A DNA stretch of 64,000 nt from a virus (Duplodnaviria > Heunggongvirae > Uroviricota > Caudoviricetes). The DNA is taken from the IMG/VR virus record IMGVR_UViG_3300025678_000001, one strand, 5' to 3'. Under the pieces are notes generated by a model. It was not told the DNA's origin and did not search any database. It was given only the letters and a program-made list of their open reading frames with translations. Made by a program: the position numbers and the translations under genes. Positions 2,988 through 58,241 of this stretch are shown here, one piece after another (position 1 is the stretch's first letter; each line of letters starts with the position of its first letter).

Positions 2988-3623
2988 TTACACGATAGTT
3001 CCTATTCCGGATACTTTTACAGGAGATCCTATGAATGCTTTAAAGCTCTGAGGAGTATTAGACACCACGTTAATCGTAAAGATCTGATGGTCAGATCCTG
3101 TAGCTTTTACTACAGCGTTTCCGGAAAGCGGTGTAGTTGGAGCAAGAGATACAGTGAACGTAGTAGCACTTGTGATTGCAGTTACTGTAGTTCCTGCCTG
3201 GAACTCACCAGTTCCGGATACTACTTCTACAGTCATGCCTACAGCAAGACCAGTTGTACTACCTACAGTGATTGTAACAGTGGAGTTAGTAGCCCCAGGG
3301 GTAGAAGTGTAAATTGGACCAAGTCCAAGATAGGTCACAACTAACGGTGCAGGATTACCTCCAACAGCAGTATTTGTAGCAGTATAAGTAGCAAGATCAA
3401 CCGGTGTGTTGATCAGAGGATTGACAGCTTTATGGAGCTTTGTAAGAATAGTGATAAGACGATCACCATTCAATACTCCCAGGGCCGGCAGGTTAGGACC
3501 GGTATATGCTGTACAATCGGTCTGTACCAGTTCTTCACAAGGCTCTCCATTTACACAGGGAGCCAGCGGTGTTGGAACCGGGGTAGGTGTACAATCAACA
3601 CATGGGTTACAGCCGTAGCACAT
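2988..3623 (-). CDS. hypothetical structural protein
   Basis: 211-aa ORF, Cys-rich N-terminus, T/V/G-rich. Confidence 0.45.
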   Translation of the reverse strand: MCYGCNPCVDCTPTPVPTPLAPCVNGEPCEELVQTDCTAYTGPNLPALGVLNGDRLITILTKLHKAVNPLINTPVDLATYTATNTAVGGNPAPLVVTYLGLGPIYTSTPGATNSTVTITVGSTTGLAVGMTVEVVSGTGEFQAGTTVTAITSATTFTVSLAPTTPLSGNAVVKATGSDHQIFTINVVSNTPQSFKAFIGSPVKVSGIGTIV

Positions 3624-3648: not shown

Positions 3649-4911
3649 TTAAACTCCGTCAAGTGTTATACTACTACTAGTAATTGTCGGAGGATTACAC
3701 ACAGGAGCACCACAATCAGGACTATCTGCCTGGTACAATGCACCTGTTTGAGTATGGTTGTATGTAGCTGAGCAAGGGTTTGTGTCTATTTGTTGATAAT
3801 ACTTACTTGTCCCAACACATACATAATATAAAGTGATGTCACGGTTTACCCAGTTTGGTGCAGTACTGTTATGAGCTACTGTTACTACACTGGATGTTAC
3901 TACTCCACAAGTCCCAGTTACTACCACGCGGTATTTATAACCATTTATAGAAGATCCACCTGCAATCGAGTAGGTTGAAGATGTTGCTCCACCAATCGAA
4001 CTATAGGATAACCCACCGTTTGTACTTCTCTCCCACTGATATGTCAAACCAGATCCAGTAGCTGTTACTGAGAGATTGATAGGATCAGAAGGACAGGTAG
4101 CTGACAAAGTCGGCTGAACTGTAATTGCTGTTACTGGTATAATGGATATCACTGCAGCAGCTGAAGGAGTATCATCACAGATGTTTGTGGCTACACAGAC
4201 AAAAGATCCAAGTATAGAGCCGGCATCTGTAATGGTTAAAGAGTTGGTCTCAGCTCCAGAATAAGATCCACCATCTGGTATAAGTATACCATTACGATAC
4301 CATGCATACCCGGTGATATCTCCTGAAAACGTAGCAGTCAGCGTAACGTTTGTAGGGCCCGCGTCAGCACAGATTCCAACACTGCTGGGACTAGTCAAAA
4401 GACCCGGAGCTACATCTGAGGAAACCCTGGTCACAGTAGGACAATCTGTCTTACTGTTTCCATCAGCCCGAGGTACCACTCTTATCTTATAGGTAGCACC
4501 TGAAATAGTACCGGTGAATACACCACTTACGGTAGCTGCAGCCGGCTTAGTCTGTCGGTTAACCTCAACATCAACATTATTGTAAAGAACTATATCGTAC
4601 TGATTTACATCCCCACCCAGCTCAGAAAATGAATAACCAAGACCGCTACAGCTGCTCGAGGTTGTTACAGGATCTGGACAGGTCAGATTTACCAACTCAT
4701 ATGGAAGAGACTCGGTATCTCCCTGGGCACACTTTGTTACAATCTTGAACTGGTAAATCCTGTTATCCAGTAAACCGTTTACGTTATACGACGTAACAGT
4801 TCCACCTACCGTCGCAATCTTGGAGTAGGTGCCACCGTGTTTAAGCCTCAGATAAATATCCTGACTGGTTATACCCGGGCCTACACTCCATGTAACTAAG
4901 AAGTTGGCCAT
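3649..4911 (-). CDS. structural protein with Ig-like repeats
   Basis: 420-aa ORF with beta-rich T/S/G repeat segments typical of Ig-like decoration or tail domains. Confidence 0.5.
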   Translation of the reverse strand: MANFLVTWSVGPGITSQDIYLRLKHGGTYSKIATVGGTVTSYNVNGLLDNRIYQFKIVTKCAQGDTESLPYELVNLTCPDPVTTSSSCSGLGYSFSELGGDVNQYDIVLYNNVDVEVNRQTKPAAATVSGVFTGTISGATYKIRVVPRADGNSKTDCPTVTRVSSDVAPGLLTSPSSVGICADAGPTNVTLTATFSGDITGYAWYRNGILIPDGGSYSGAETNSLTITDAGSILGSFVCVATNICDDTPSAAAVISIIPVTAITVQPTLSATCPSDPINLSVTATGSGLTYQWERSTNGGLSYSSIGGATSSTYSIAGGSSINGYKYRVVVTGTCGVVTSSVVTVAHNSTAPNWVNRDITLYYVCVGTSKYYQQIDTNPCSATYNHTQTGALYQADSPDCGAPVCNPPTITSSSITLDGV

Positions 4912-34428: not shown

Positions 34429-34501
34429 AGGTGGGTGGGAAACTCGAAGCCCCGTATGACTGTTTTGCGGACAGTTGCCTTACCATCTTGGCGAACCCAC
34501 C
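34429..34501 (-). tRNA. tRNA-Cys(GCA)-like (C33, weak T-stem)
   Basis: acceptor GGTGGGT/ACCCACC, D-arm GCC-AAGATGGTAA-GGC, anticodon loop CCGCAAA, T-loop TTCGAGT. Confidence 0.4.
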
Positions 34502-36105: not shown

Positions 36106-36180
36106 TACCCCCACCGGAGATCGAATCCGGTTCTTCACCGTGAAAGGGTGGCGTCCTGTACCTTCTAGACGATAGGGGCA
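36106..36180 (-). tRNA. tRNA-Glu(UUC)
   Basis: the sequence GCCCCTATCGTCTAGAAGGTACAGGACGCCACCCTTTCACGGTG...TTCGATC... closely parallels canonical bacterial tRNA-Glu. Confidence 0.65.
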
Positions 36181-36445: not shown

Positions 36446-36515
36446 TTGCGGGGCCGGGATTTGAACCCGGGAAACACGGCTTATGAGACCGGTCGGCCAC
36501 CTGGCTCCCCACAAT
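36446..36515 (-). tRNA. tRNA-like gene, anticodon arm unresolved
   Basis: canonical T-arm CCGGG/TTCAAAT/CCCGG and acceptor pairing TGTGGGG/CCCCGCA, but the interior is 2 nt short of a standard cloverleaf. Confidence 0.3.
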
Positions 36516-38326: not shown

Positions 38327-38458
38327 AACTAAGCTGTTTTAAAAGTGAGGGGGCTTTTACACCCCCTTGGGCTAAGGCAGGTCTGTCAAGTTTCATGAGT
38401 TCTCTACAAATATAAGAAACCAGACTCCAGTTCTCCAAATATTTCTACAAGTTTCCTT

Positions 38459-38529
38459 GAGCTCATTTTTGAGCCCTAGAACATAGTAATAAGGAATACA
38501 TGGTATGTTATAGAGCTCAGATTTGAGCT
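38459..38529. promoter_or_regulatory. two palindromic operators AGCTCA-N4-TGAGC(C/T) in the divergent intergenic region
   Basis: AGCTCATTTTTGAGCC at 38459-74 and AGCTCAGATTTGAGCT at 38514-29. Confidence 0.4.
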
Positions 38530-38544
38530 CAAGGAAAGTTGGAC

Positions 38545-38640
38545 CCAGTTCTCCAAGATACCCCCCGGTACTATCGTAGTTTTACGATACCCCCCCCCGG
38601 GTAGTTTTACTAACCTCGGGTACCGGTATGGTTTGTAGGA
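38545..38640. repeat. C-tract direct repeats (GATACCCCCC(C)GG(G)TA...GTAGTTTTAC x2; C6, C9, C5-6 tracts)
   Basis: seen in the divergent intergenic region between the minus- and plus-strand gene blocks. Confidence 0.4.
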
Positions 38641-38736
38641 GAGGATGGGGGTACCTCTCCCTGATCAACCCCCGCCACCCTCCAAAGAACTCCGTACCCC
38701 CCTCAAATCCAGTGTTAACTTTTAAAAAAACTCTAT

Positions 38737-38973: not shown

Positions 38974-40281
38974 GCTCTCCCTGTTCACGCAGTACAAAGA
39001 GAGCCGTGGCTTTACGTTACGGTTCTCTTCTACATCTCAAGTCCACCATTCTTTTCACCATTTAACGTTACTGTTCTATGAAACACGTACGAACACTCCG
39101 CTTTCAGTGTTACCAGCTCTTTGTATCCTGGTACACTAAGATCAGCCAAAGGTTTCACGACCTCAGACTCTGCAACATCAAGACACGTTGGCAGGACCAT
39201 TGTGTTGTTGTAGTGGTAACTTACTGAGTTTTCCTCTGTAAGATGCTGATTACGAACTGATTGTGGGTGTATGACTGAGTGATAGTTATACACCCACTTC
39301 TTTCCTCATACTCTTCATCCACAGTCAACCTGAATACGGTCGGGCGTGGATCAAATAGCTATAGGCACGGGTGTTCCCTGCCGTATGCAAAACACAACAA
39401 ACCCAAGTGGCACAGGGGGTAACTCTCTGCAGGGAGATATAGTAGATGTCTGTAACAAGCTCTATGGTCACACTAGGCATATTGGTAATTATTCTTGGTA
39501 AGCCGGTATATGCCACCGGCTCCAAAAAAACGCTAGAGACCAACGCCGGCACAGTGGACTGGACTACTGGAGGGGATGTGAAGAACCAGATATTAGCTGA
39601 CTCCCTGACGTGCTGGTGTTGTTATCTCTACTACACAACTACTGTCTCTTATGTATCAATGCGTCACAACCTGGTTCCCAAGGCTAGGCAGTTGTAATAG
39701 GCTCAAGACTTTTAAGTCTGTAAGTAGTGGAAACAGTTAGGTTCAAATCCTACATATTACAACTGAACGCAGAGGGATATGATACCTGATTTCTCCACCG
39801 TTCTAAAACCTACGCTATATGCCACAGGATCCTTCATTACCGTTTACTATCATTTCAATGTATCCGTCTGTTGAACACCCTGGTAAGGTGGCTGTCCTTG
39901 TACAGTACAAAGATGGTATACAGAAAGTCTTATACCTGACCGACAAGCCTGTCTATGGTATTCAGGTAGAACAATAAAACCGACCCGGATATGAAACTTG
40001 AGACAAAGAGAAAGCTGTTATTCAGGCTCACTGAAGCCTGGCAGCAGTCCTTCCCGGGACAGTATGGTTACTTCCGGGTGTTTACGCGTCCACCGATTAG
40101 GTATTCTCCACGATACAGGGGAGTAAGGGACACTAAACGCAGAGTTACCGTACAGATCGTACACAGGATGGACACAACAGATAATGCTGTGTACCAGAGC
40201 CTGAAACAATTCACCAAACCTTTTAATCAGGACTTCCCACACCTGCACTGGCAGTGGTGGTAGTCTGCAAATCAACCCGTT

Positions 40282-40503: not shown

Positions 40504-41078
40504 TCGTCTTTCCCAATGCACATATTCTCATGTGGTAACATGTCGTACGGCAACGACTATAACAAGTAATAAGGAGTAAGTCACCTCAGATAACATCTCC
40601 TACGACGTGAAGCCACACTGATTAACCTGTTATAGAAACAGGCTACTGTATATGTAATGCAGTGAAATAAAGTAATCAGTCTCTTCAAGAGATGAGAAAA
40701 CAGTTGTAATAAGCTAATACAGGCTGAATAGAGTAAACGTGAAACCTTACGTTACAACTGTTTGTGCAAAGGGATCTCGGCAAGGTGGTGTTAAGCCTTG
40801 TGCGTTCAGTGTGGTATATCCATACTGAGGTCACCAGATCTTATTGTTATGTGGGTATTTAACCTTAAGAAATACCAGTTTGACCATATCGCATCTACCA
40901 TGAGAAAACATGGTCGTGGTTATGAATGGCATACTGGTGATTACACTGCTATCAAGCTTAAGATAGAAGATTGGAAAGAGTTCTTTCCACACTATCTCAA
41001 CTCCTCTGTGGGAGTATAAACCGTGTTAAGCACAGAGCGTTCACATAGTTAAAGTATACACTTTAAGGCTAAGCTGTA

Positions 41079-41324: not shown

Positions 41325-41531
41325 GATATCCTTCTCTTTAGTGGTACGAGAGAGGTGCTGGGAACAGCCTTAGGTATCGTATATAAATACGCGGACCGGT
41401 TTGACTGGTCTGAATAATCGTATATGGTATGGCCACACCAATGTCGGTTGGTAAATCTATATTAGGAAAACATGGGAGACTTGGTTCGACGGCTGGGTCT
41501 CCCTACTTTTTAACTCACCCAAACTCACTAT

Positions 41532-43533: not shown

Positions 43534-43716
43534 CACGTTAGGTACCATGGTACTTAGTACGGTCGAATGACATATCTACAACAGGCAGCCGCATCTCCGC
43601 CTCTGGGCCGTGTACGGCTGTTTTCTATCTTCTTTTTCTGGTGAACCTGGTCTCGAAAGGGGCTGGGTTCACCTTGTTATCACTGTAAGAATCAGTGACA
43701 AAGAGGATAATATAGT

Positions 43717-49825: not shown

Positions 49826-50013
49826 TCTGATACTGAGAGCTAGTAAGTAATCTATGGGGAAGTCCGTCGAACAGTTTTTCACTTAGTACCGTCCCCGTGT
49901 GATAATAGGCGTAGCCGGTCTGGGAACCGTGCATAAACCCAGTAGATCCACTCGAAGTAGTGTGAAAGCTATCCTCAGTATAGACCTTGGCTTGGAACAC
50001 TTGTGCCAGTAAA

Positions 50014-50086
50014 CAGGTGTACTCAGGGAGTAGCTCAGATAGGAGAGCATCCGGGCGACCCCCGGAAGGTCGGTGGTGCAAGTCCA
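50014..50086 (+). ncRNA. degenerate tRNA-like element
   Basis: canonical D-arm TAGCTCAGATAGGAGAGCA and T-stem GGTGG/CCACC, acceptor 6 of 7 pairs, but anticodon loop GCGACCC (C33) and T-loop TGCAAGT are non-canonical. Confidence 0.3.
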
Positions 50087-50113
50087 CCCTTCCTAACTAA
50101 ACCAAAGAAACCT

Positions 50114-50914
50114 ATGAGTTACGCCATTAAACTTTTATTCTTTTTAGGTAGTTGTATTCTTGCATTTGTAGCCGGTAGGCTTACAAGCAGTCTGTCTTAC
50201 CACTGGAGTCAAGTGGATGGGCCGAATCAGGCCGTTATAGTTTCACCCAATGACAGTACCACACAAGTCAACGGTTTGGTACAGGGTGTCTATCATTTTG
50301 AGTTAGCAGTTACCGACCCTCAAGGAGCTACAGGACGGGATACCATGATGGTTACCGTACTTCCTGGAGTTCTTCCTATCAAACTGGTTTACTTCAAAGC
50401 GTACCCGCTGGCTGATGTAAACATGATCAAGTGGAAAACATCTGAAGAGATAAACATAAAAGAGTTTATCCTGGAATCCTCTACAGACGGTGTTCATTTT
50501 TACGGTCTCTATCATACGTTTGCTATCGGAGCTACACCAACCTCTCCTTCTGAGTATGACTATGAACATAAGTTCCCAGGAAGAGAGCAGTATTACAGAC
50601 TTAAGTCTATTGAGACATCTGGTACTTATACATACAGTGATGTTGTAAAAGTAACCAGATCTATTTCGACATCTATTTGGTCAAACAACCCTGTTACATC
50701 GACTCTTAATGTTACCATAAACGTAGATAATGCTACTACAGCTAACTTCTACATTTATGATGCTACCGGAAGAAGAATGGCATTCTATACGTACAATCTA
50801 AGTCCTGGTAAGAACAGTTTCAGTTATCATACTGGTCAGTATGCTTCTGGTCTGTATATCATTAAAGTTGACGTAGGAGGTATTATCTCAACCAAAAAAT
50901 TCGTCAAACAATGA
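50114..50914 (+). CDS. secreted protein with Ig/PKD-like domain and a Type IX secretion system C-terminal sorting domain
   Basis: signal peptide MSYAIKLLFFLGSCILAFVAG; C-terminus ...NSFSYHTGQYASGLYIIKVDVGGIISTKKFVKQ matches the Por/T9SS CTD pattern; the ORF-track start at 50003 is rejected because it lies within a tRNA-like element. Confidence 0.65.
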   Translation: MSYAIKLLFFLGSCILAFVAGRLTSSLSYHWSQVDGPNQAVIVSPNDSTTQVNGLVQGVYHFELAVTDPQGATGRDTMMVTVLPGVLPIKLVYFKAYPLADVNMIKWKTSEEINIKEFILESSTDGVHFYGLYHTFAIGATPTSPSEYDYEHKFPGREQYYRLKSIETSGTYTYSDVVKVTRSISTSIWSNNPVTSTLNVTINVDNATTANFYIYDATGRRMAFYTYNLSPGKNSFSYHTGQYASGLYIIKVDVGGIISTKKFVKQ

Positions 50915-51174
50915 ACCCTCATGCTTTAATAACCTTTATCGTTTGTATAGGAGGTTTTCTTTGGCTTGTTACATCCAGTACTATCGTTGTTCTATGCAAG
51001 CCACAGCTTCCCAAGCTTTGGTGGTATAAAAACTGGTTACTTATTGTACAGGTACTCTGTGCTTTTATACTACTTCTGATGGGACTTCAGAAAGCTTCTC
51101 AAGATGTTGGATTCAAAGAAGACAAACCTCAATACGAACAAATCAATGAACCTTTATACAGATTAAAACAGTAA
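50911..51174 (+). CDS. small membrane protein
   Basis: 87-aa ORF with two TM helices. Confidence 0.4.
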   Translation: MNPHALITFIVCIGGFLWLVTSSTIVVLCKPQLPKLWWYKNWLLIVQVLCAFILLLMGLQKASQDVGFKEDKPQYEQINEPLYRLKQ

Positions 51175-51186
51175 AACGAAACACAC

Positions 51187-51585
51187 ATGAAAAAGCTCTT
51201 CTTTATCCTTTGTCTGACAGTAGGATCTCTTATGGCAAACGCCCAACACGTTACTGTTGAACCCCACGTTGTAGTGGAACCGCATGTAACCCCTGTTGAA
51301 CACGTTACTCCGGTCACAGAACATGCTGTACCGGTAGAACATTTCACGCCCAGTCATCCATATTCAGCATCCGAAGAATACCACCCGGTATATAATGGTG
51401 GTGTCTGGTTTGCCCTGATCCATAACCACCAGACCGGTAATACCGATACTGTAAAGGCATCCTCTAAGAATGAACTGGATAAGATGATCCAGGATAAAAC
51501 GGTAGATGAAGATGAAGGACGTACCGGAGCAATGCTCTTGGTACTGGTTATTCTTTTATTTGTTCTTGGTCTGTTCTTTTTATAA
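51187..51585 (+). CDS. secreted repeat protein with C-terminal membrane anchor
   Basis: signal peptide MKKLFFILCLTVGSLMANAQ, HVTVEPHVVVEPHVTPVEHVTPVTEHAVPVEH repeats, C-terminal TM. Confidence 0.5.
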   Translation: MKKLFFILCLTVGSLMANAQHVTVEPHVVVEPHVTPVEHVTPVTEHAVPVEHFTPSHPYSASEEYHPVYNGGVWFALIHNHQTGNTDTVKASSKNELDKMIQDKTVDEDEGRTGAMLLVLVILLFVLGLFFL

Positions 51586-51592
51586 CCACCAT

Positions 51593-51901
51593 ATGAAAAA
51601 ACAAATCATTGTTACGATCCCGGATAATCCGGATTATAGAGTTGTAGCCGACTTTGGTACTTTCAACAATGTGATTGAAGACGTCTGGTTCTTTGTACTT
51701 CAAAAACGAGAGTATCGGAAAAAGTGGGGGTTCTTTGGTAAACCTCAACCACGATGGATCGAAGTAGATTCCAGATGGACGTCTGACGATTTTACAACGT
51801 CTTCAAAAGTATACAAATATGCTTTTGAACTCTATGATTTACTCGTAGGGAAACGTCTCAACAGAGCCCGTAACGCACAGGAGATAGAACGTTCACTATA
51901 A
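51593..51901 (+). CDS. hypothetical protein
   Basis: in-frame Met (MKKQIIVT) of ORF 51506-51901 just after the upstream stop. Confidence 0.4.
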   Translation: MKKQIIVTIPDNPDYRVVADFGTFNNVIEDVWFFVLQKREYRKKWGFFGKPQPRWIEVDSRWTSDDFTTSSKVYKYAFELYDLLVGKRLNRARNAQEIERSL

Positions 51902-52140
51902 ACTTCTTAATACCTGCTGAAAGCAAAACAACTGAAACCAAGTATCCGCCGGTAGTAGCGGTTTAAACAGTGAGTACACTTACCTTGGTTAATTCAGAAC
52001 CCCTACCAAGAGGGAGTTGTTTGTGGACAGATACTCTGATAAGTAAAGCCTCTTGGACTCAAACTCCAACGTAACGTAAGGATAAAGTATTCACACACTT
52101 GGAGTGACAGGTATTAACTTCTAAAACCCTTAACAAGCAT

Positions 52141-52596
52141 ATGGCTACTAAAAAGAAAGCTGCTAAAAAGAAAGCAGCGTACAAACCACTGAACCCTACG
52201 TTCTTTAAACAGGTTACAGTATCGGAGCTTGACTGGTCAAAAGTTCCTGTTGGTACAAAAGTGACAGCAAAAGTAGACCGAACAATCATTACTGGAAGGA
52301 TCTACAAAGAAGATAAAGAGATTTTGATCTGTCACAATAACAGAAACAAAGACTGCTATACAGAAGGTTTATTAGGATATAAATACTCTGTTAACATTGG
52401 AACCGGTTCTCCTGTTGATCTTAAACACAACGAAGTTCAGATCCTGGAACTTGAACGTGATCCTAACTGGGTAGCACCAGTTCAGATCTTTATTGACGGG
52501 GATGCTATCATCTTCGGAAAAGGTAAGATCAGAGTGGGATGTACCACCGTTAAAAACGAAGTTGTCAGAGAGATAGCAAAGAATCTCGTTGACTAA
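52141..52596 (+). CDS. hypothetical protein with Lys/Ala-rich N-terminus
   Basis: 151-aa ORF starting MATKKKAAKKKAAYK. Confidence 0.5.
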   Translation: MATKKKAAKKKAAYKPLNPTFFKQVTVSELDWSKVPVGTKVTAKVDRTIITGRIYKEDKEILICHNNRNKDCYTEGLLGYKYSVNIGTGSPVDLKHNEVQILELERDPNWVAPVQIFIDGDAIIFGKGKIRVGCTTVKNEVVREIAKNLVD

Positions 52597-53290
52597 TAAG
52601 CTTGTAAAGTATGTAGTCTTCCAGTGACATGAGGACGGTAAGATGTATCGGTTAATAACCAGAGTCTTACGAGTAAGTCACCTTTACATGATCAGGCTAA
52701 ACATTGAAGCCTTTGTACGCTGCTCGACGACATTTGTAACGTGAGTCAGACTGCATAAAGATAACAACCCTGAATGAACAGGGTGTAGATAACCTTAAAG
52801 CAATAAGAGGTGAGAAAAGTACCTTGAGGGTCTAAGAACGATGGACACTTTTATAGTGCACCAGTTTCCCGCCAGAGTAAGGACGGAGGGACTAAGACTA
52901 TATCTTTCAAAATCTATGGAGTAATCCTGTACGTGTTGTTCCCTTGAGAAAGGAAGGGTTACGTGGATGAGCGTGGTTAAGAGCCTACCCCCAACAACAC
53001 GAATGAGTTTTCAGCAAGTAGTTATGAGGAGGAGATTAAGATTCTCTATCAGGTACAGAAGCCAAAGCGGAGTGCTCTGTTAGGTAAATGGGATGCTTGA
53101 GTAAGCCGTTATATTAAAGCATCGGTAATAACTACACGACCCTACTCTTATAGAAGACTGAGGCTTGATAAGAGCCCATCCTCACTGAAATATGACCAGA
53201 CCTCTTTTACATGACCAAGTTTGTAGAAGAAGGGTACTGTAAGGAGTCATTACTATAAGACAAGAGGGTGCTAGTGATTTACAAGGAACA

Positions 53291-53956
53291 ATGACGCATT
53301 ACGGCCTGGGTCTTTACCCGGGCCTCTTTTTCTTAATCCAAAAAACCAGAAACATGAGTCAAAAGGAAGACTTGAGTATAGCCGGATCAGGTAGTCCAAT
53401 CTCACTTAAAAAGTTCTTACTAAAACATCCTGATGCCAAACCTCTGACTGTCTTGGTTGACGGTACAGGGTTAGGTATAGCTAAGGATGATTCAGGTACA
53501 ATATACATCACTCGTGAAGATTGTGCCCAACAAGCCCTGTACTACTGTAAAGAAGTATTTGATGGAGTAAGAGTTCCTGCTTACCTATTCAGGTACCTGA
53601 ACTACATGATGTTTGATGACGAGCGTTGGAATGACGATAAACAAGTAGCCCAGGCTTTCATTGACGGTACAGTAAACGATCAGTCAGAAGAGTACCTCCG
53701 GGTCAAAAACTTCTTGACCTATGCAGAACACAATCCAGAAGGATTACAGGTCATAGGTCTTATTCAGCTTATTGGAGGTAGTCTGAACATGGCTCGTAAA
53801 CGTAACTCAGGTATCCGGATCTATCTTGAACACCCTGAGACAGCCTTGCATCCAAAAAGACAATCACGTTTTATAAGCTTGTTTTACAAGCTTCAAAAAG
53901 ATTATGGTTATGAGGAGGTTCAACCAGCGCATGACGTGGATGGTGACCAAGACTAG
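53291..53956 (+). CDS. hypothetical protein (may start at 53354, MSQKEDL)
   Basis: 221-aa ORF after a 0.7-kb ORF-free region. Confidence 0.45.
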   Translation: MTHYGLGLYPGLFFLIQKTRNMSQKEDLSIAGSGSPISLKKFLLKHPDAKPLTVLVDGTGLGIAKDDSGTIYITREDCAQQALYYCKEVFDGVRVPAYLFRYLNYMMFDDERWNDDKQVAQAFIDGTVNDQSEEYLRVKNFLTYAEHNPEGLQVIGLIQLIGGSLNMARKRNSGIRIYLEHPETALHPKRQSRFISLFYKLQKDYGYEEVQPAHDVDGDQD

Positions 53957-54000
53957 TAACCATAGTCTTTTTTAACAAATCTAAAACCCCTTTACATACA

Positions 54001-54336
54001 ATGAAAAAGATCATCTTTTCAATCTTAACAGCAGTAGTACTGCTGAGTGCATGTGAAACATCTGAAGGTATCAAAGCTGGTACCTTACAGAAAGTAAGTC
54101 ATAAGACCTTCCCCTGCTCCTACTATGTAGCGGAGTTTGCATTTGAAGGTGGCCGGGCATCTGGTTCTAACGACTCAAAAGCTTACGCGAACACCCAGGA
54201 AGTGGAAATCACTAAAGAAGCTTTTGACAGCCTCCAGAACCTGGTAGGAAGCCGTGTACGGTTCTCCTACAAAGACGAAGGTTTCAAGGCGTGTGCTCCG
54301 AATAAAAAACTGGAGACACTGGCTGTCATTAAATGA
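54001..54336 (+). CDS. lipoprotein
   Basis: MKKIIFSILTAVVLLSAC lipobox signal peptide. Confidence 0.5.
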   Translation: MKKIIFSILTAVVLLSACETSEGIKAGTLQKVSHKTFPCSYYVAEFAFEGGRASGSNDSKAYANTQEVEITKEAFDSLQNLVGSRVRFSYKDEGFKACAPNKKLETLAVIK

Positions 54337-54689
54337 TCAAACCGGTTGGGTAGCACAAACACAGAAACTGTCCAAATGTTGTACAACTCTGTATGAACAT
54401 CTGAGCCAAGTAGTGCGTCGGTGTCCAAAGCCGAAGATGATGGGGTAGGTCCATCCCTGGCCACACGTTCCGAAACATGACAACGGATAGTACCATCCTG
54501 TATGATGAGAAGCAGAGTGATGTCTGTATGGATAAGTGACAACTTCTTTGAAAGTTGTGGGCCGACAGCCTGAGATCTGTGATCTTAAAAGTCTAGTCCT
54601 AACTCACCTAGAAAAAACAGCAGGGAGGGGATAACCCTCTGTGAGGACAGCCACGGTACTTGCAAGCTGGATAAATTAGAGTACCACAC

Positions 54690-54810
54690 GGGCTTATTAG
54701 TTCAGTGGCAGAACACCGGGTCCGATGAGGCGGCTTTTATTAAGGTTATTGCAACCCCAAAAGAAAACCGAAACCCCGGGAGGTCACCAGTTCAAATCTG
54801 GTATAAGCCC
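54690..54810 (+). tRNA. tRNA-like gene with a ~47-nt structured insertion replacing the anticodon loop
   Basis: G(-1)+GGCTTAT acceptor pairing with ATAAGCC+C73, D-arm TA-GTTC-AGTGGCA-GAAC, T-arm ACCAG-TTCAAAT-CTGGT, anticodon stem CCGGG/CCCGG flanking 54 nt containing its own hairpin. Confidence 0.45.
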
Positions 54811-54844
54811 CTATAAACAAACACTTTAAATTAGTCTAAAGCTT

Positions 54845-55084
54845 ATGAAAGTCTTATTCGGAAAGATGCCCAGTAAGTTGATCGTACGTTTGAAGATAGC
54901 ACTGGGTATCTTTACTATCTGTACGATCTTTGGGATTATAGGGTACTTTGTACCTTCTTCAAAGCCTCCCTTACTTAGAACATTTGCTGCGTTCATCCTA
55001 CCACTTGCTTGTCTAACAGCAGTTCTGATCTTGTTTAAGATCATGGAATTTATCCTGTGGTGTTTTGATTGTAAGCCCAGGTAA
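54845..55084 (+). CDS. small membrane protein (hypothetical)
   Basis: 79-aa ORF with two TM helices, downstream of the tRNA-like gene. Confidence 0.3.
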   Translation: MKVLFGKMPSKLIVRLKIALGIFTICTIFGIIGYFVPSSKPPLLRTFAAFILPLACLTAVLILFKIMEFILWCFDCKPR

Positions 55085-55498
55085 AAATATAGTACAGAGG
55101 AGGTAGGCTTGGAAGTAGCCATAAGGTAGAACCTTACTCTTGGGTTGAGGCTGGCTGAGATCAGATATACATCTAAGAGTCCTTTAAAGAGTTGCAAGTA
55201 GGACCCGTAACTGATTATGTGACGACTAAAAGTGGTAAAACTACAGGAGATATAGTCCTGATGAAAAGAAGTAAGCGTCAATAGGACTGAGTAGCTGGAT
55301 TATTATACACTCCTTAGAGCATTTGGTGTAACAACACACTCTGTACTTTTTTCTTAGCTCCGGGGATCACACCATCCGTCAATCTGGTTGTGTTATGTTT
55401 AAGCAAGCTTAAAAGAGCAGCTCCATTGGTCTGTTTACTGTCTGGTGAGCTCAGACTTTAAAAAGTAGAATGGGTCAACTGGAAAAGCTGCAGAAATA

Positions 55499-55530
55499 TT
55501 TGTAGAACTCCTAAAAAAGTTCTATATTTG
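55499..55530 (+). promoter_or_regulatory. Bacteroidetes-type promoter (-33 TTTG within TTTGTAGAAC, N20, -7 TATATTTG) driving the tmRNA-like gene
   Basis: TTTG at 55499-55502, TATATTTG at 55523-55530, RNA 5-prime GGGCCCG at 55540. Confidence 0.5.
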
Positions 55531-55539
55531 TTCTACACT

Positions 55540-56195
55540 GGGCCCGTCTGGTTTAGACAGCAGAGTGAGTGGTAACTACACATGTGGACAAAGTAAGAAC
55601 GTCCTAAAATACTTACAAAACAATAAACGCTATGACTAAGTCTGAGCGTGTAGCAGAAGGTGAAGCTATCCTGGCTTCTATCTTCGTTGATGAGGCTGTA
55701 GCAGCCTGATCCTACGGGGGATCTATCCCTGGCAACAGAAAATAGAACTGAAGTCTTATATGAGCATACAGAACTAAACGGGACATATGCCGTAAAGTAA
55801 TCCGTGTATAAGACGTAGAGTGGCTCCCTTAATAGTCTAGGCTGACCTAGAGCATTCTAACTGAAGCATGGTATACAGGGGGTGAAGCCGTGCAACCCAG
55901 CTATGGGTTACCAGAATGATACAGTTACAGATGAGCGTAGTATGTGAAAACATTCAAATAAGTATCTGTTATAAAAAGTATAGTGACTGAATGTTTGGTA
56001 GTAATAGCATGTTTTCCTGGTTATGTCAAAACTAGGTGGTGGAGTAGGCGGTCTTGATTGGACGCCCCCAAACTACGGTGCAGATGAAGTGACGCAGTCT
56101 TTTAGACTTGATCCAAAGTAATCAGTACTAAACATGTAATACGTTGTAGTTATTGACTTCTTTGTTGGACACGAGTTCGATTCTCGTCGGGTCCA
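55540..56195 (+). ncRNA. ssrA: candidate phage-encoded tmRNA (ssrA-like), unusually long (~650 nt)
   Basis: 5-prime GGGCCCG-UCUGGUUUAGAC parallels E. coli tmRNA 5-prime GGGGCUG-AUUCUGGAUUCGAC; 3-prime GGAC-ACGAG-UUCGAUU-CUCGU-CGGGUCC-A parallels GGAC-GCGGG-UUCAACU-CCCGC-CAGCUCC-A; the 5-prime and 3-prime 7-mers pair (one GU); internal frame ...ASIFVDEAVAA followed by UGA at 55707; consensus promoter upstream and rho-independent terminator downstream; no ORF of 60 aa or more. Confidence 0.45.
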
Positions 56196-56221
56196 CTCTC
56201 TCAAAGCTAAGCAATCGTTAG

Positions 56222-56257
56222 ACCCCCGGTGGTTTCTACTACTGGGGTTTTCTTTTT
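56222..56257 (+). terminator. rho-independent terminator after the tmRNA-like gene
   Basis: 7-bp stem CCCCGGT/ACTGGGG (one GU) with a 10-nt loop, then TTTTCTTTTT. Confidence 0.6.
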
Positions 56258-56590
56258 AAACAAGTTACTCAACATATTTTCTTAGAGATGTTCTCTTTGA
56301 AAATCTGGATACGTCTTTATCCAAGTCCCGTGGGGAAGGTCATTGAGACCATAGACTGTCACAAGAGGAAAAAACTGGAAGATTCTTACGGCAGTTAAGA
56401 TATCCTGACTTCAATGTCGAAGTAACACTTGTCGTAGACGGGTTTAAAAAAGAGTAGTACAATTCTAGATATGTACGTTGATCCTGAGTATTTATACAAT
56501 ATACCCGCTGATACAGAAGTATCAGAGACGTAAACTCCTGTCTGACGACCAGTACGTTAAACTGGTCTTTTTACATCCTTAACCAAGCAT

Positions 56591-56899
56591 ATGGAAGAAT
56601 ACCTGATTATCAACAAGAAGAATGATGAAATAGAGTACATCATCTCTGTGATTACAGACAGTATCGGAACCAGTTACATGATGCGTAGGTCTAAAGCTAG
56701 TTCCTGGTCAGAAGACGTACGTGATAAACGTGTTCTGACAATTACAGACACCGGTGACAACATGATCGTAGATCCTAAGCTCGGTAAGAAGCTTGAGTAC
56801 GACGTATATGCAGAACTTTTAATCCTAATGAACTTCATCAAGAGTAAAGACAAAAACCTCACTGAAGAATACATGGTTGCAAACTATTCAAAGCCATAA
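56591..56899 (+). CDS. hypothetical protein
   Basis: 102-aa ORF. Confidence 0.45.
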   Translation: MEEYLIINKKNDEIEYIISVITDSIGTSYMMRRSKASSWSEDVRDKRVLTITDTGDNMIVDPKLGKKLEYDVYAELLILMNFIKSKDKNLTEEYMVANYSKP

Positions 56900-57158
56900 T
56901 ATGAGCAGAATCACTCGTCGTAACTGGACCGAAGATAAATTCGGCATAGTATCAAAAGGTAGCCTACCAGATCTTTTTGACAACACTGTTAAAAGTGTTT
57001 ACAGAATCACAGATCAGGAGTATGATCTGTTGGCAGAGAAAATGACAGAGACAGAGATGAACTTGTTTATTACGGAAAATCCAACGTATGCTGAAAAGCG
57101 TGTTATGATTCAACTGTTGAACAAGTACATCGACTACTCAGTATTGCAAGATCAGTAA
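56877..57158 (+). CDS. hypothetical protein
   Basis: 93-aa ORF. Confidence 0.4.
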   Translation: MQTIQSHNMSRITRRNWTEDKFGIVSKGSLPDLFDNTVKSVYRITDQEYDLLAEKMTETEMNLFITENPTYAEKRVMIQLLNKYIDYSVLQDQ

Positions 57159-57200
57159 CCTGTATTCACAGGCATTTTAAACAAGACAAAAACATACAGC

Positions 57201-58241
57201 ATGAACAATGTATGGTCACAACGTGGGAGCAGTTTTATCCCCGAAGAAATCACCCACCAGGTACAGAAGTTACCGGTTGGGATTTATAAAGTTCAAGAGC
57301 ATCCGGCTCTGAAGTTCCTGTACTTGGATCGTGTTCAGGACAGTTTCCCTTTCCCGTATAAAGTATACGGTATTGAAAGGCCGTTCATCGACCGCGTGAA
57401 AAAGTCTTATGAAAACACCACAGGAAACTTTGGTGTACTGCTTAACGGTATGAAAGGTACCGGTAAGACTGTCACAGCTGAAATCATCTGTAACGAGATG
57501 AACCTACCGGTTATCATCATCCCCAGGCACTATGACAGTATAGTGTCCTTCTTAAATAACATACAGCAGGATGTTATTGTTTTTATCGACGAGTTTGAGA
57601 AAATCTATGATCGGTACCAGAACAGTCTTCTGACGATCATGGATGGAGCCATGAAGACCAAACACCGTATTTTCTTCCTGCTGACTACCAATGAAACCAG
57701 GATTGATTCAAACTTGTTACAACGTCCGAGCCGTATCCGGTACGTAAAAATGTTCAGTGACATGAAACTGGAAGTCATCATGGAAGTAGTAGATGATCTC
57801 TTAAAGCACAAACACCACAGAGAGTCTGCTATCAAGATGATCTCCGAGATGCCGATCATCACCATGGACCTGGTAAAAGCTGTGATCAACGAGATCAACA
57901 TCCACGATGAAGATCCTTACGAGTTCCGTGAGATCTTCAACGTACACGCAGATCGTTCTGAACTGTACAACATTTTTGAGATCAAAGATGGAGAACGTCT
58001 GGAGATCAAAACGTTTGCTACGATCAGTCCAAGCTGGCTCAGTGAGTACAGTGTAGGTGAAGACTTCGAGATCAATGGAAGACCCATTGGTTACATCAAA
58101 TCCGTTCTGTCTAGCCGCCAGCTCCTGGTTGCTGAAAGAGAGGACGAAGATGATGCATCCACAGAAGTAGCCCGTCTGATCCTGCTGGAACCGGCTGTAA
58201 AAACACATAAAGCTTTTGCCGGAAGCTCTCTGGCATTTTAA
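57201..58241 (+). CDS. AAA+ ATPase
   Basis: Walker A GMKGTGKT, Walker B VIVFIDEFEK, sensor/arginine region LLTTNETRID...RPSRIRY. Confidence 0.75.
   Translation: MNNVWSQRGSSFIPEEITHQVQKLPVGIYKVQEHPALKFLYLDRVQDSFPFPYKVYGIERPFIDRVKKSYENTTGNFGVLLNGMKGTGKTVTAEIICNEMNLPVIIIPRHYDSIVSFLNNIQQDVIVFIDEFEKIYDRYQNSLLTIMDGAMKTKHRIFFLLTTNETRIDSNLLQRPSRIRYVKMFSDMKLEVIMEVVDDLLKHKHHRESAIKMISEMPIITMDLVKAVINEINIHDEDPYEFREIFNVHADRSELYNIFEIKDGERLEIKTFATISPSWLSEYSVGEDFEINGRPIGYIKSVLSSRQLLVAEREDEDDASTEVARLILLEPAVKTHKAFAGSSLAF

What the first reader, a model, noticed from the sequence alone, without database searches (positions are those of the whole stretch)
51902..54690. Several ORF-free segments of 0.2-0.7 kb in an otherwise dense genome
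The segments 51902-52140, 52597-53290 and 54337-54689 have no ORF of 60 aa or more in any frame, and they contain multiple hairpins. They flank the tRNA-like gene at 54690. They could encode structured ncRNAs, intron remnants or decayed genes such as homing endonucleases.
Basis: inference. Interest (0 to 1): 0.5.

Follow-up and report, generated by a model that had tools for sequence, protein, structure and literature searches.

The report
Two unannotated phage structured-RNA genes
Two of the three "empty" stretches in this crAss-like phage genome are genes for conserved, folded non-coding RNAs found in many other phages but absent from the RNA-family database; in a cultured relative, one of them lies in an intergenic region reported as an abundant RNA of unknown function.

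Summary
The ORF-poor stretches are real and form an RNA-gene island (51.9-56.6 kb, + strand) in a distant crAss-like phage of Bacteroidota.

**Segment 52597-53290** holds a ~580-nt structured RNA (about 52694-53275) followed by an intrinsic terminator.
- It belongs to a family found in at least 101 viral contigs and in only 3 of about 185,000 species genomes.
- The family has strongly covarying helices.
- A homologue lies in Cellulophaga phage phi14:2. By my mapping of gene numbers, it sits in an intergenic region published as an abundant, persistent long non-coding RNA of unknown function.

**Segment 54337-54689** holds a ~222-nt structured RNA (54465-54686).
- It belongs to a second family, found in 31 viral contigs.
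- Members sit flush between tRNA or tRNA-like genes in phage tRNA arrays.

**What was excluded.** Neither family matches any Rfam 15 model, including group I and II introns, RNase P RNA, GOLLD and ROOL. No six-frame translation hits Pfam. Intron remnants and decayed genes are therefore not supported.

**Segment 51902-52140** stays unresolved. It has no homologue and only a marginal fold signal.

**Function.** Unknown. My working model is that these are stable RNAs cut out of tRNA/tmRNA-containing precursors by tRNA-processing enzymes. They are the same kind of thing as GOLLD and ROOL, but not members of those families.

The parts
51902..52140 (+). Segment 1: an unresolved spacer or 5' leader of gene 52141-52596. 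The predicted fold is closed by a 10-bp helix (51907-51916 with 52108-52117).
   Evidence: The MFE is -55.5 kcal/mol, z = -1.76, with 6 of 200 shuffles as good. A perfect 10-bp stem appears in 37 of 1000 dinucleotide shuffles. No homologue was found in about 220 related or family loci. There is no Rfam hit and no Pfam hit in six frames.
52694..53275 (+). Large structured RNA, about 580 nt: the longest of the 63 family members with both end blocks.
- 5' block AGGCUAAACAUUGA: starts at 52694.
- GUAA-capped hairpin: 52916-52929.
- Helix H1: 52932-52938 with 52995-53001.
- Helix H1b: 52939-52942 with 52952-52955, closing the loop CUUGAGAAA.
- Junction AAUGAGUUUUCAGCAAG: 53002-53018.
- Helix H2: 53018-53025 with 53128-53135.
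- Helix H3: 53139-53143 with 53265-53269.
- 3' tail: GCUAGU.
   Evidence: - **Spread.** The family was found in 22 and then 101 viral stretches by two DNA patterns.
- **Similarity.** A profile HMM built on an alignment that includes the window gives the window's own copy E = 5.8e-48, and gives other members E values from 1e-56 to 1e-10.
- **Covariation.** On 71 sequences, 92.7% of cells pair, 16 of 17 pairs have changes on both sides, and 0 of 500 shuffles reach the covariation score. H2 and H3 are supported on 61 sequences.
- **Length.** Family range 199-579 nt, median 345.
- **Cultured relative.** blastn hits Cellulophaga phage phi14:2 at 3115-3214.
- **Rfam.** No hit at E <= 10.
53303..53334 (+). 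Intrinsic terminator (GGCCUGGGUCUUUACCCGGGCC followed by a U-run) ending the large-RNA transcription unit.
   Evidence: The terminator scan gives 9 pairs, 7 of them G-C, then TCTTTTTCTT.
54396..54464 (+). Possible degenerate tRNA-like remnant (acceptor-like stem, one hairpin, T-arm-like hairpin), ending CCUGGCCAC directly before the next RNA. Low confidence.
   Evidence: In 17 of 22 family members the RNA is preceded by a tRNA-like 3' end ...CAGGTTCGAATCCTGTCCTGACTAC. The window has ...GGTAGGTCCATCCCTGGCCAC at that place. The fold is shown (z = +0.22, so not significant). There is no Rfam tRNA hit.
54465..54686 (+). Structured RNA of about 222 nt, a member of the tRNA-array family.
- 5' end: ACGUUCCG.
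- Five consensus hairpins.
- Invariant single-stranded motifs: GGAUAGU, GAUGAGAA, UCCUAAC, GGACAGCC.
- A 3' terminal hairpin.
   Evidence: - **Relatives of this phage.** nhmmer gives E = 1e-15 to 1e-18 to L001, L008 and L010, although the neighbouring small ORFs are not conserved.
- **Spread.** 31 viral stretches match the pattern.
- **Alignment.** A5, 22 distinct sequences.
- **Structure.** RNAalifold predicts 24 pairs, 14 of them with compensatory changes.
- **Controls.** 98.1% of cells pair; 0 of 500 shuffles reach the score; slid controls pair 28-48%.
- **Rfam.** No hit in the window or in 11 member loci.
54691..54810 (+). Atypical 120-nt tRNA-like gene, 4 nt downstream of the 222-nt RNA. 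It has normal acceptor, D and T arms and a 53-nt 'anticodon loop'.
   Evidence: Rfam tRNA scores 46.2 bits against a gathering score of 29. ARAGORN does not call it. ARAGORN with introns allowed gives only a forced solution.
55540..56198 (+). Phage tmRNA gene, unusually long at 659 nt, followed by a terminator at 56224-56247. It is part of the same RNA island.
   Evidence: Rfam tmRNA scores 60.7 bits against a gathering score of 47, E = 2.9e-22. A full-length homologue is in L178.

Best explanation
**What it is.** The region 51.9-56.6 kb is an RNA-gene island on the + strand of a distant crAss-like phage of Bacteroidota. Two of the three flagged segments are genes for stable, structured non-coding RNAs.
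1. A ~580-nt RNA (about 52694-53275) ends at an intrinsic terminator. It belongs to a widespread, virus-restricted family.
2. A ~222-nt RNA (54465-54686) belongs to a second family, which sits flush between tRNA or tRNA-like genes in phage tRNA arrays.

**Shown.**
- Homology, family size, strand and helices with covariation for both RNAs.
- Absence from Rfam and absence of coding signal.
- A homologue of the large RNA in Cellulophaga phage phi14:2. I map its position to the intergenic region reported there as transcribed above most protein-coding genes and persisting through infection.

**Inferred, about 0.5-0.6.** Both RNAs are made as parts of longer precursors that also carry tRNA, tRNA-like or tmRNA units. 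They would be released by host tRNA-processing enzymes: RNase P at the 5' end of the downstream tRNA or tmRNA, and RNase Z or a related activity after the upstream tRNA-like unit. In other phages their ends abut those genes within 4-30 nt.

**Inferred, about 0.3.** They act in trans on the translation apparatus during takeover of the host, as RNA-only or RNA-protein particles. This would make them the same kind of thing as the phage-borne, tRNA-island-associated GOLLD and ROOL RNAs.

**Unresolved.** Segment 51902-52140 is most simply the structured 5' leader of gene 52141.
For: **Phage type.**
- ORF 50003-50914 carries a T9SS sorting domain.
- The nearest TerL matches are all crAss-like phages, at about 25% identity.

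**Large RNA: distribution and order.**
- Blocks conserved in the same order span about 580 nt.
- The patterns match 22 and 101 viral stretches, against 3 MAG contigs among 185,579 species genomes.

**Large RNA: structure.**
- Many independent compensatory variants of H1 exist, for example UGUGUUGU/ACAACACA, ACGUGAGU/ACUCACGU, AGCUAUUG/CAAUAGCA and ACAUGCAG/CUGCAUGA.
- Formal counts: 92.7% of cells pair, against 68% in shuffles and 33-52% in slid controls. 16 of 17 pairs have changes on both sides.
- H2 pairs in 91% of cells, with 7 compensatory pairs.
- G-U pairs, the GUAA loop and the terminator all fix the strand as +.

**Large RNA: link to phi14:2.**
- The homologue is at L080 3105-3350 on the + strand, between gp006 and gp010.
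- The preprint 10.1101/2020.03.07.982082 reports the g004-g005 and g005-g006 junctions as rightward-transcribed. Their level is above most protein genes, they are present from the earliest time point, and they do not decline. Their function 'remains to be determined'.
- My mapping of g004-g005 to gp006-gp010 is an inference from ORF order. It is consistent with g066 (the RNA polymerase) being gp077.

**Adjacency to tRNA and tmRNA.**
- A tmRNA starts 5-8 nt after the family's 3' end in L064, L140 and L107, and 26 nt after it in L066. In 5 further unique copies it starts 31-300 nt after it.
- In L082 a tRNA-like 3' end directly precedes the family's 5' block.

**222-nt RNA.** Evidence is. In the alignments it directly follows ...CCTGACTAC and directly precedes a tRNA 5' end. 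In L039, L054 and L056 it instead precedes a T-run after its terminal hairpin.

**Conservation relative to neighbours.** Both RNAs are far better conserved than nearby proteins. No protein family recurs in more than 12 of 108 neighbourhoods.
Against: - There is no expression data for this phage. The only expression evidence comes from a homologue of the large RNA in one cultured phage, and it depends on my mapping of gene numbers.
- The exact 5' and 3' ends are inferred from where conservation starts and stops.
- Single-sequence folding energies are not better than shuffles.
- The core motifs of the large RNA were used as search patterns. Their invariance, and the proposed loop-junction pairing UGAGAA/UUCUCA, are therefore untested.
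- Only about 15-20% of large-RNA copies have a detected tmRNA or tRNA just downstream. In the window the large RNA has its own terminator and lies 2.2 kb from the tmRNA, so co-processing cannot be general.
- Nothing points to a specific molecular function.
- The closest relatives of this phage (ATPase 51-62% identical) lack the large RNA within the DNA fetched.
Confidence: 0.8

Rival explanations
1. The conserved structures are cis-regulatory leaders or long 5'/3' UTRs (attenuators, riboswitch-like elements) that control the adjacent protein genes, not independent RNA genes.
For: Segment 1 directly precedes gene 52141 with no terminator between them. Both RNAs lie on the same strand as their neighbours, and ORFs in family neighbourhoods are nearly all co-directional.
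Against: - The large RNA is followed by a strong terminator before the next ORF.
- No downstream or upstream protein family is conserved with either RNA; the best recurs in 12 of 108 neighbourhoods.
- The elements are often flanked by tRNA or tmRNA genes rather than by ORFs.
- By my mapping, the phi14:2 homologue lies in an intergenic region whose transcript stays abundant while the other early transcripts decline.
Confidence: 0.08
2. The segments are remnants of self-splicing introns (group I or II) or of intron-borne homing-endonuclease genes that have decayed.
For: Relatives of this phage do carry introns: L010 has a group I intron beside its tmRNA homologue (85.5 bits). ORF 53355-53956 shows only weak, partial AAA_15 and AAA_21 matches, which could suggest a truncated gene.
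Against: - There is no group I or II hit in the segments, even at E <= 10, nor in 11 and 8 member loci.
- No Pfam domain appears in any of the six frames.
- Translated matches are short, in mixed frames and on both strands.
- The elements lie between genes, not inside them.
- More than 100 diverse phages keep the same RNA core with compensatory changes. That indicates purifying selection on an RNA fold, not decay.
Confidence: 0.03
3. The conserved blocks act at the DNA level, for example as a replication origin, packaging site or promoter cluster of the early region, not as RNA.
For: The region lies near the boundary between oppositely oriented gene blocks and has AT-rich stretches. Conserved, invariant 15-20-nt blocks could be protein-binding sites.
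Against: - Compensatory changes keep the base pairs, including many G-U pairs that would be A-C mismatches on the other strand.
- There is a conserved GNRA-capped hairpin and a terminator on the + strand.
- By my mapping, the phi14:2 homologue lies in a region with abundant rightward transcription.
- No repeat arrays were found.
Confidence: 0.03

Closest known systems
Long non-coding RNA of Cellulophaga phage phi14:2 (g004-g005 intergenic region; Drobysheva et al., bioRxiv 10.1101/2020.03.07.982082)
   Same: It is homologous to the window's large RNA, with the same conserved blocks in the same order and on the same strand. It lies in the early region of a crAss-like phage of a Bacteroidota host, with a tmRNA gene about 0.7 kb downstream.
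   Different: - The phi14:2 copy is about 446 nt, against about 579 nt here. The window copy has extra subdomains in the 5' part, inside H2 and inside H3.
- The paper describes only transcription of the intergenic region. It reports no family, no structure and no function.
- The match between the paper's gene numbers and the GenBank genes is my inference.
GOLLD RNA (Rfam RF01998)
   Same: A large structured RNA of unknown function, encoded by phages and prophages, often near tRNA islands. It has a well-conserved 3' part and a variable 5' part (PMC12286853). The large RNA here also has its best-conserved core in the 3' two-thirds and a variable 5' part.
   Different: There is no match to the Rfam model at E <= 10 or in member loci. 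The motifs differ, the median length is smaller (345 nt), and the hosts and phages are different. Whether this RNA multimerises is unknown.
ROOL RNA (Rfam RF03087)
   Same: A phage-borne large structured RNA near tRNA islands. It is highly abundant, has no known protein partner and has no known function (PMC12286853).
   Different: There is no match to the Rfam model. Sequence and helices are unrelated.
Small stable RNAs inside the phage T4 tRNA cluster (species 1 and 2, rnaC and rnaD). This comparison is from my own knowledge and was not checked here.
   Same: Non-tRNA stable RNAs encoded within a phage tRNA gene cluster and matured from the same precursors as the tRNAs. Their function is unknown. 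This is the closest analogue in kind for the 222-nt RNA.
   Different: No sequence comparison was possible with these tools. T4 infects Enterobacteria, and its RNAs are about 120-140 nt.

Membership tests
Unnamed phage large-RNA family (phi14:2 type), for 52694-53275 | Ordered core motifs: GNRA hairpin, H1, loop CUUGAGAAA closed by H1b, AAUGAGUUCUCAGCAAG, H2, GUGACCCUACUCUUAU, then AAGAGGGUGCUA. | tested here: met
   All motifs are present in order in the window. A profile HMM built on an alignment that includes the window gives E = 5.8e-48. An independent blastn hits phi14:2.
Unnamed phage large-RNA family (phi14:2 type), for 52694-53275 | Helices supported by compensatory changes across members. 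| tested here: met
   The window's own H1, H1b, H2 and H3 all pair, with C-G in place of the usual U-A at the outer H1 pair.
Unnamed tRNA-array RNA family, for 54465-54686 | ACGUUCCG start; motifs GGAUAGU, GAUGAGAA, UCCUAAC, GGACAGCC; five covarying hairpins; position flush with tRNA or tRNA-like genes. | tested here: met
   A profile HMM built on an alignment that includes the window gives E = 5e-38. The RNA ends 4 nt before the tRNA-like gene.
GOLLD (RF01998) and ROOL (RF03087) | A match to the family covariance model at or near its gathering score. | tested here: not met
   No hit at E <= 10 on 51880-53360, at E <= 1 on 51000-57500, or in 8 member loci.
Group I intron (RF00028) | A covariance-model match to the catalytic core (P3-P9), and insertion inside a gene whose exons rejoin. 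| tested here: not met
   No hit. A positive control in L010 scored 85.5 bits. The elements lie between genes.
Group II intron | Domain V and domains I-VI, by covariance-model match. | tested here: not met
   No Rfam hit at E <= 10.
RNase P RNA (bacterial A and B, archaeal, type T) | A covariance-model match, and the conserved P4 regions (GGAAAGUCC ... ACAGAANNCGGCUUA). | tested here: not met
   No Rfam hit. The motifs are absent on reading the sequences. The consensus motifs themselves come from my own knowledge.
Decayed protein gene or homing endonuclease | Protein-domain similarity detectable in some frame across stop codons or frameshifts. | tested here: not met
   Six-frame translations of all three segments give 0 Pfam families at E <= 1. 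Only short, mixed-frame tblastn matches were found.
tRNA, for 54691-54810 | A cloverleaf scored by the tRNA covariance model. | tested here: met
   46.2 bits against a gathering score of 29.
tRNA, for 54691-54810 | A 7-nt anticodon loop with a readable anticodon. | tested here: not met
   There are 53 nt between the anticodon-stem strands. ARAGORN makes no call. Allowing introns gives only a forced model.
tmRNA (RF00023), for 55540-56198 | A covariance-model match at or above the gathering score. | tested here: met
   60.7 bits against a gathering score of 47.

The most novel reading that the evidence does not exclude
The two RNAs are new classes of phage-encoded stable RNAs that act on the host translation apparatus. 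In this reading the large RNA, abundant in phi14:2, forms a higher-order RNA particle or a catalytic or scaffold RNA, comparable to GOLLD or ROOL but evolved independently in crAss-like phages and other phages. The 222-nt RNA would work together with the odd long tRNA-like genes that flank it, for example in their maturation, or as decoys against tRNA-targeting host defences.
Probability: 0.25. Interest if true: 0.85.

Novelty: new variant of a known kind. Interest (0 to 1): 0.65.

Why it matters
- **An open question gets a lead.** An abundant RNA of unknown function was reported in phi14:2, the model crAss-like phage. This work places that RNA in a family of more than 100 members with a defined, covariation-supported core. 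That allows rational mutants, structure probing and cryo-EM.
- **The class of phage RNAs grows.** The few known large or ornate phage RNAs found next to tRNA islands (GOLLD, ROOL) would gain two further, unrelated families. This suggests that phages carry such RNAs often.
- **Annotation improves.** GenBank covers the phi14:2 locus with three spurious 34-39-aa 'hypothetical proteins'. Covariance models for both families would remove such calls from phage genomes.

Tried and rejected
- **Single-sequence folding.** Folding each segment gave no significant energies, so I did not use it as evidence.
- **Repeats.** The repeat search found only short chance-level repeats, plus an upstream motif shared by two genes. 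The pattern CTAAAACCC... is not enriched in the window.
- **Closer relatives.** Protein 53291-53956 (viral contigs), protein 52141-52596 (metagenomes) and the ATPase (metagenomes) found nothing closer than 62% identity. Whether the flanking genes are contiguous in close relatives could not be tested, and segment 1 could not be evaluated comparatively.
- **Hammerhead in the tRNA-like gene.** I considered a hammerhead-like core in its loop (CCGAUGAG...CGAAAC). I dropped it because the position of the conserved U is a C and there is no Rfam hit.
- **RNase P, SRP, 6S and Y-RNA-like identities.** I considered these for the 222-nt RNA. None has the defining motifs or an Rfam match.
- **Shared origin of the two families.** I asked whether they are related through their similar 3' ends, AGGGUG(C/U)UA. 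Their architectures differ and neither profile detects the other family, so I treat them as distinct.
- **Partner protein.** I looked for a protein gene that recurs next to either RNA and found none.
- **Cultured phages with the 222-nt RNA.** blastn against INPHARED found none.
- **Literature.** Four searches of the held library found no description of either family beyond the phi14:2 transcription note.
Full report
**1. The observation**

With ATG, GTG and TTG starts, 52597-53290 has no ORF of 60 aa or more in any frame. 51902-52140 is ORF-free up to 52058, where a 76-aa minus-strand ORF (lying mostly antisense to the next gene) begins to overlap it. 54337-54689 is overlapped by a 64-aa GTG ORF and a 91-aa TTG ORF, and is ORF-free only for ATG starts.

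ORF-free gaps of 150 nt or more in the window cluster at 33.3-41.5 kb, around a tRNA array, and at 51.9-56.6 kb. Folding energies of the three segments are not better than shuffles: z = -1.76, -0.74 and +0.32. So 'multiple hairpins' is not evidence by itself.

Rfam confirms a tRNA-like gene at 54691-54810 (46.2 bits), but it is 120 nt long with 53 nt in place of the anticodon loop. Rfam also finds a 659-nt tmRNA at 55540-56198 (60.7 bits). ARAGORN misses both.

Plus-strand terminators lie at 53303-53334, 56224-56247 and 56547-56567. The first overlaps the start of the listed ORF 53291-53956, whose real start is probably the ATG at 53355.

**2. What genome this is**

- ORF 50003-50914 carries a type IX secretion sorting domain.
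- The structural genes are those of a tailed phage.
- All the nearest terminase matches are crAss-like phages, at about 25% identity.
- There is no nucleotide match in INPHARED for the whole region at E <= 1e-5.
- The closest relatives in IMG/VR and JGI metagenomes share only 51-62% identity in the neighbouring AAA ATPase.

The window is therefore a distant crAss-like phage with no close relative in the collections.

**3. Segment 54337-54689**

*Conservation.* The 3' 220 nt are conserved in relatives L001, L008 and L010 (nhmmer E = 1e-15 to 1e-18), while the surrounding small ORFs are not conserved. A pattern taken from three invariant blocks found 31 stretches in viral contigs.

*Extent and setting.* The alignment shows a 180-250-nt element running from ACGUUCCG to GGGUGUUA.
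- In 17 of 22 distinct members it directly follows a tRNA-like 3' end (...CAGGTTCGAATCCTGTCCTGACTAC).
- In most members it is directly followed by the 5' end of a tRNA or tRNA-like gene.
- In three members a T-run follows the terminal hairpin instead.

*Structure.* RNAalifold predicts five hairpins, 24 pairs in all, 14 of them with compensatory changes. In formal counts 98.1% of cells pair, no shuffle out of 500 reaches the score, and slid controls pair only 28-48%.

*Other tests.* No Rfam family matches it in the window or in 11 member loci at E <= 5. No cultured phage in INPHARED has it.

*Coordinates.* In the window the RNA is 54465-54686. It ends 4 nt before the tRNA-like gene, and it is preceded by what looks like a degenerate tRNA-like remnant ending CCUGGCCAC (weak).

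**4. Segment 52597-53290**

*Finding the family.* Weak hits of its central part to L015 and L049 gave a 21-nt motif that matched 22 viral stretches. Blocks conserved in the same order span window 52694-53273. A second pattern, which left the helices free to vary, matched 101 viral stretches. The same pattern matched only 3 metagenome-assembled contigs among 185,579 species genomes. The family is therefore essentially viral.

*Architecture.* Reading 5' to 3':
1. A 5' block, AGG(C/U)UAAACAUUGA.
2. A GUAA-capped hairpin.
3. Helix H1, which encloses a short helix H1b that closes the loop CUUGAGAAA, plus a variable insert.
4. The junction AAUGAGUUCUCAGCAAG.
5. Helix H2, with a variable insert.
6. 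GUG.
7. Helix H3 (ACCCU with AGGGU), with a variable insert.
8. GCUAA at the 3' end.

*Covariation.*
- H1 exists in many compensatory versions.
- On 71 sequences the GNRA hairpin, H1 and H1b pair in 92.7% of cells. Shuffles pair 68% and slid controls 33-52%.
- 16 of 17 pairs have changes on both sides, and no shuffle out of 500 reaches the covariation score.
- H2 pairs in 91% of cells, with seven compensatory pairs. The core of H3 is invariant.

*Size and other tests.* Members measure 199-579 nt, median 345. The window's copy is the longest of those measured, and one of its extra subdomains is shared with L089. Rfam gives nothing at E <= 10 on the segment or at E <= 1 in 8 member loci.

*An untested tertiary pairing.* The loop UGAGAA is complementary to UUCUCA in the junction; in the window the junction reads UUUUCA, which gives one G-U pair. 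Both strands were part of the search pattern, so covariation could not be examined.

**5. The link to a cultured phage**

A family member and the window's own copy both hit Cellulophaga phage phi14:2, a crAss-like phage, at record positions 3110-3359 on the + strand. The profile HMM gives E = 6.4e-41. GenBank covers this place with three minus-strand 'hypothetical proteins' of 34-39 aa.

[quoted passage not shown] They are present from the earliest time point and, unlike other early transcripts, do not decline. [quoted passage not shown]

From the order of real ORFs, g004-g005 corresponds to the gap between gp006 and gp010, which holds the family RNA. This mapping is consistent with the paper's g066 (the RNA polymerase) being GenBank gp077. 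It is an inference, because the paper's gene table was not available. The second region, g005-g006, contains a tmRNA (46 bits, E = 2.6e-16).

**6. Context across the families**

- A tmRNA begins 5-8 nt after the 3' end of the large RNA in L064, L140 and L107, and 26 nt after it in L066. In 5 further unique copies it begins 31-300 nt after it. Rfam adds more cases.
- In L082 a tRNA-like 3' end directly precedes the 5' block of the large RNA.
- ARAGORN misses many of these divergent tmRNAs, so the counts are lower bounds. Even so, most copies have no detected tRNA or tmRNA neighbour in the DNA held.
- No protein family recurs next to either RNA; the best is 12 of 108 neighbourhoods.

**7. Alternatives tested**

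- *Introns.* No group I or group II hit was found, and a positive control in L010 scored 85.5 bits.
- *Decayed genes.* No Pfam hit was found in any frame of any segment at E <= 1. Translated comparison with 8,646 ORF fragments from related loci gave only short matches in mixed frames and strands over the conserved RNA nucleotides.
- *DNA-level elements.* G-U pairs, the GNRA loop, the terminator and (by my mapping) the reported transcription in phi14:2 argue for RNA.
- *Cis-regulatory leaders.* The terminator after the large RNA and the lack of conserved neighbouring genes argue against this.

**8. Segment 51902-52140**

No homologue was found in any held locus. The predicted fold is closed by a perfect 10-bp helix joining its two ends, but 3.7% of shuffles contain a stem that long, and z is only -1.76. 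It may be the structured leader of gene 52141 or an orphan RNA. I cannot tell which.

**9. How it most likely works**

*Shown.* Two conserved, structured, non-coding, plus-strand RNA genes lie in an island with a tRNA-like gene and a tmRNA gene. A homologue of one of them lies in a region of a cultured phage reported as giving an abundant and persistent transcript.

*Inferred.* The RNAs are released from precursors by the enzymes that mature the adjoining tRNA and tmRNA units, and they then act in trans, probably on translation. The nearest known things in kind are GOLLD and ROOL: large RNAs of unknown function, encoded by phages near tRNA islands, that form RNA-only cages (PMC12286853). The small stable RNAs of the T4 tRNA cluster are a further analogue, from my own knowledge. 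Membership in GOLLD or ROOL was tested and not met.

**10. Novelty and verdict**

Four literature searches found no description of either family beyond the phi14:2 transcription note. A survey of short viral RNA motifs could not be cross-checked. I rate the finding as a new variant of a known kind, namely phage-borne structured RNAs of unknown function associated with tRNA islands.

Noticed in passing
window 55540-56198 (+): The phage tmRNA is 659 nt, nearly twice the usual length, with two large insertions relative to the Rfam model. ARAGORN misses it. A full-length homologue is in L178 4659-5321.
   Followed up: partly
window 54691-54810 (+): A 120-nt tRNA-like gene with normal acceptor, D and T arms but 53 nt between the anticodon-stem strands. 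It has no readable anticodon. ARAGORN with introns allowed gives only a forced tRNA-Cys model.
   Followed up: partly
L010 246-370 and 522-649; L008 3292-3416; L003 4474-4579; many of L027-L057: Related and other phages carry repeated long tRNA-like genes. These share nearly identical ends (AGTCAGGTGGCGGAATTGGTAGACGC ... CAGGTTCGAATCCTGTCCTGACTAC) but have variable 40-70-nt middles. Rfam scores them 33-40 bits and ARAGORN misses them. They flank the 222-nt RNA family.
   Followed up: partly
L010 7071-7287: A group I intron (Rfam 85.5 bits) lies at the 3' part of the tmRNA homologue of a relative, apparently within or next to its T-arm. The window's tmRNA has no such intron.
   Followed up: partly
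L080 4022-4493 (Cellulophaga phage phi14:2, record about 4031-4502): The second highly transcribed 'long non-coding RNA' region reported for phi14:2 (the g005-g006 junction, by my mapping) contains a tmRNA gene (Rfam 46 bits, E = 2.6e-16). GenBank annotates small hypothetical ORFs there instead.
   Followed up: yes
window 38327-38721, 39698-39990, 40539-40797, 41325-41531, 43534-43716: There are further ORF-free gaps of 180-400 nt downstream of the tRNA array. Rfam gives no hits at gathering score. They were not examined for conserved RNAs.
   Followed up: no
window 55343-55396 (+): A 54-nt block in the gap before the tmRNA is conserved in relatives L008, L010, L177 and L178 (nhmmer E about 1e-5 to 1e-6). 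Its meaning is unknown.
   Followed up: no
window 56259-56590 (+): The gap after the tmRNA lies between two + strand terminators (56224-56247 and 56547-56567), so it could be a small transcription unit of its own. No homologue was found.
   Followed up: no
window 53291-53956 (+): The first 40 nt of this listed ORF form the terminator of the large RNA, so the real start is probably the ATG at 53355. The protein has only weak matches to the C-terminal parts of AAA_15 and AAA_21, below Pfam's cut-offs.
   Followed up: partly
window 34429-34501, 36106-36179, 36446-36513 (-): Rfam finds three tRNAs in the 34-37 kb array that ARAGORN does not report.
   Followed up: no
L106 4088-4362 and 4425-4671: Two copies of the large-RNA family lie in tandem in one viral contig. 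L050 likewise carries two copies of the 222-nt family.
   Followed up: no
window 52119-52144 and 56569-56594: Two genes, starting at 52141 and 56591, share an almost identical upstream sequence (CCTTAAC(C)AAGCATATGG), each just after an ORF-free segment. It may be a shared translation-start or promoter context.
   Followed up: partly
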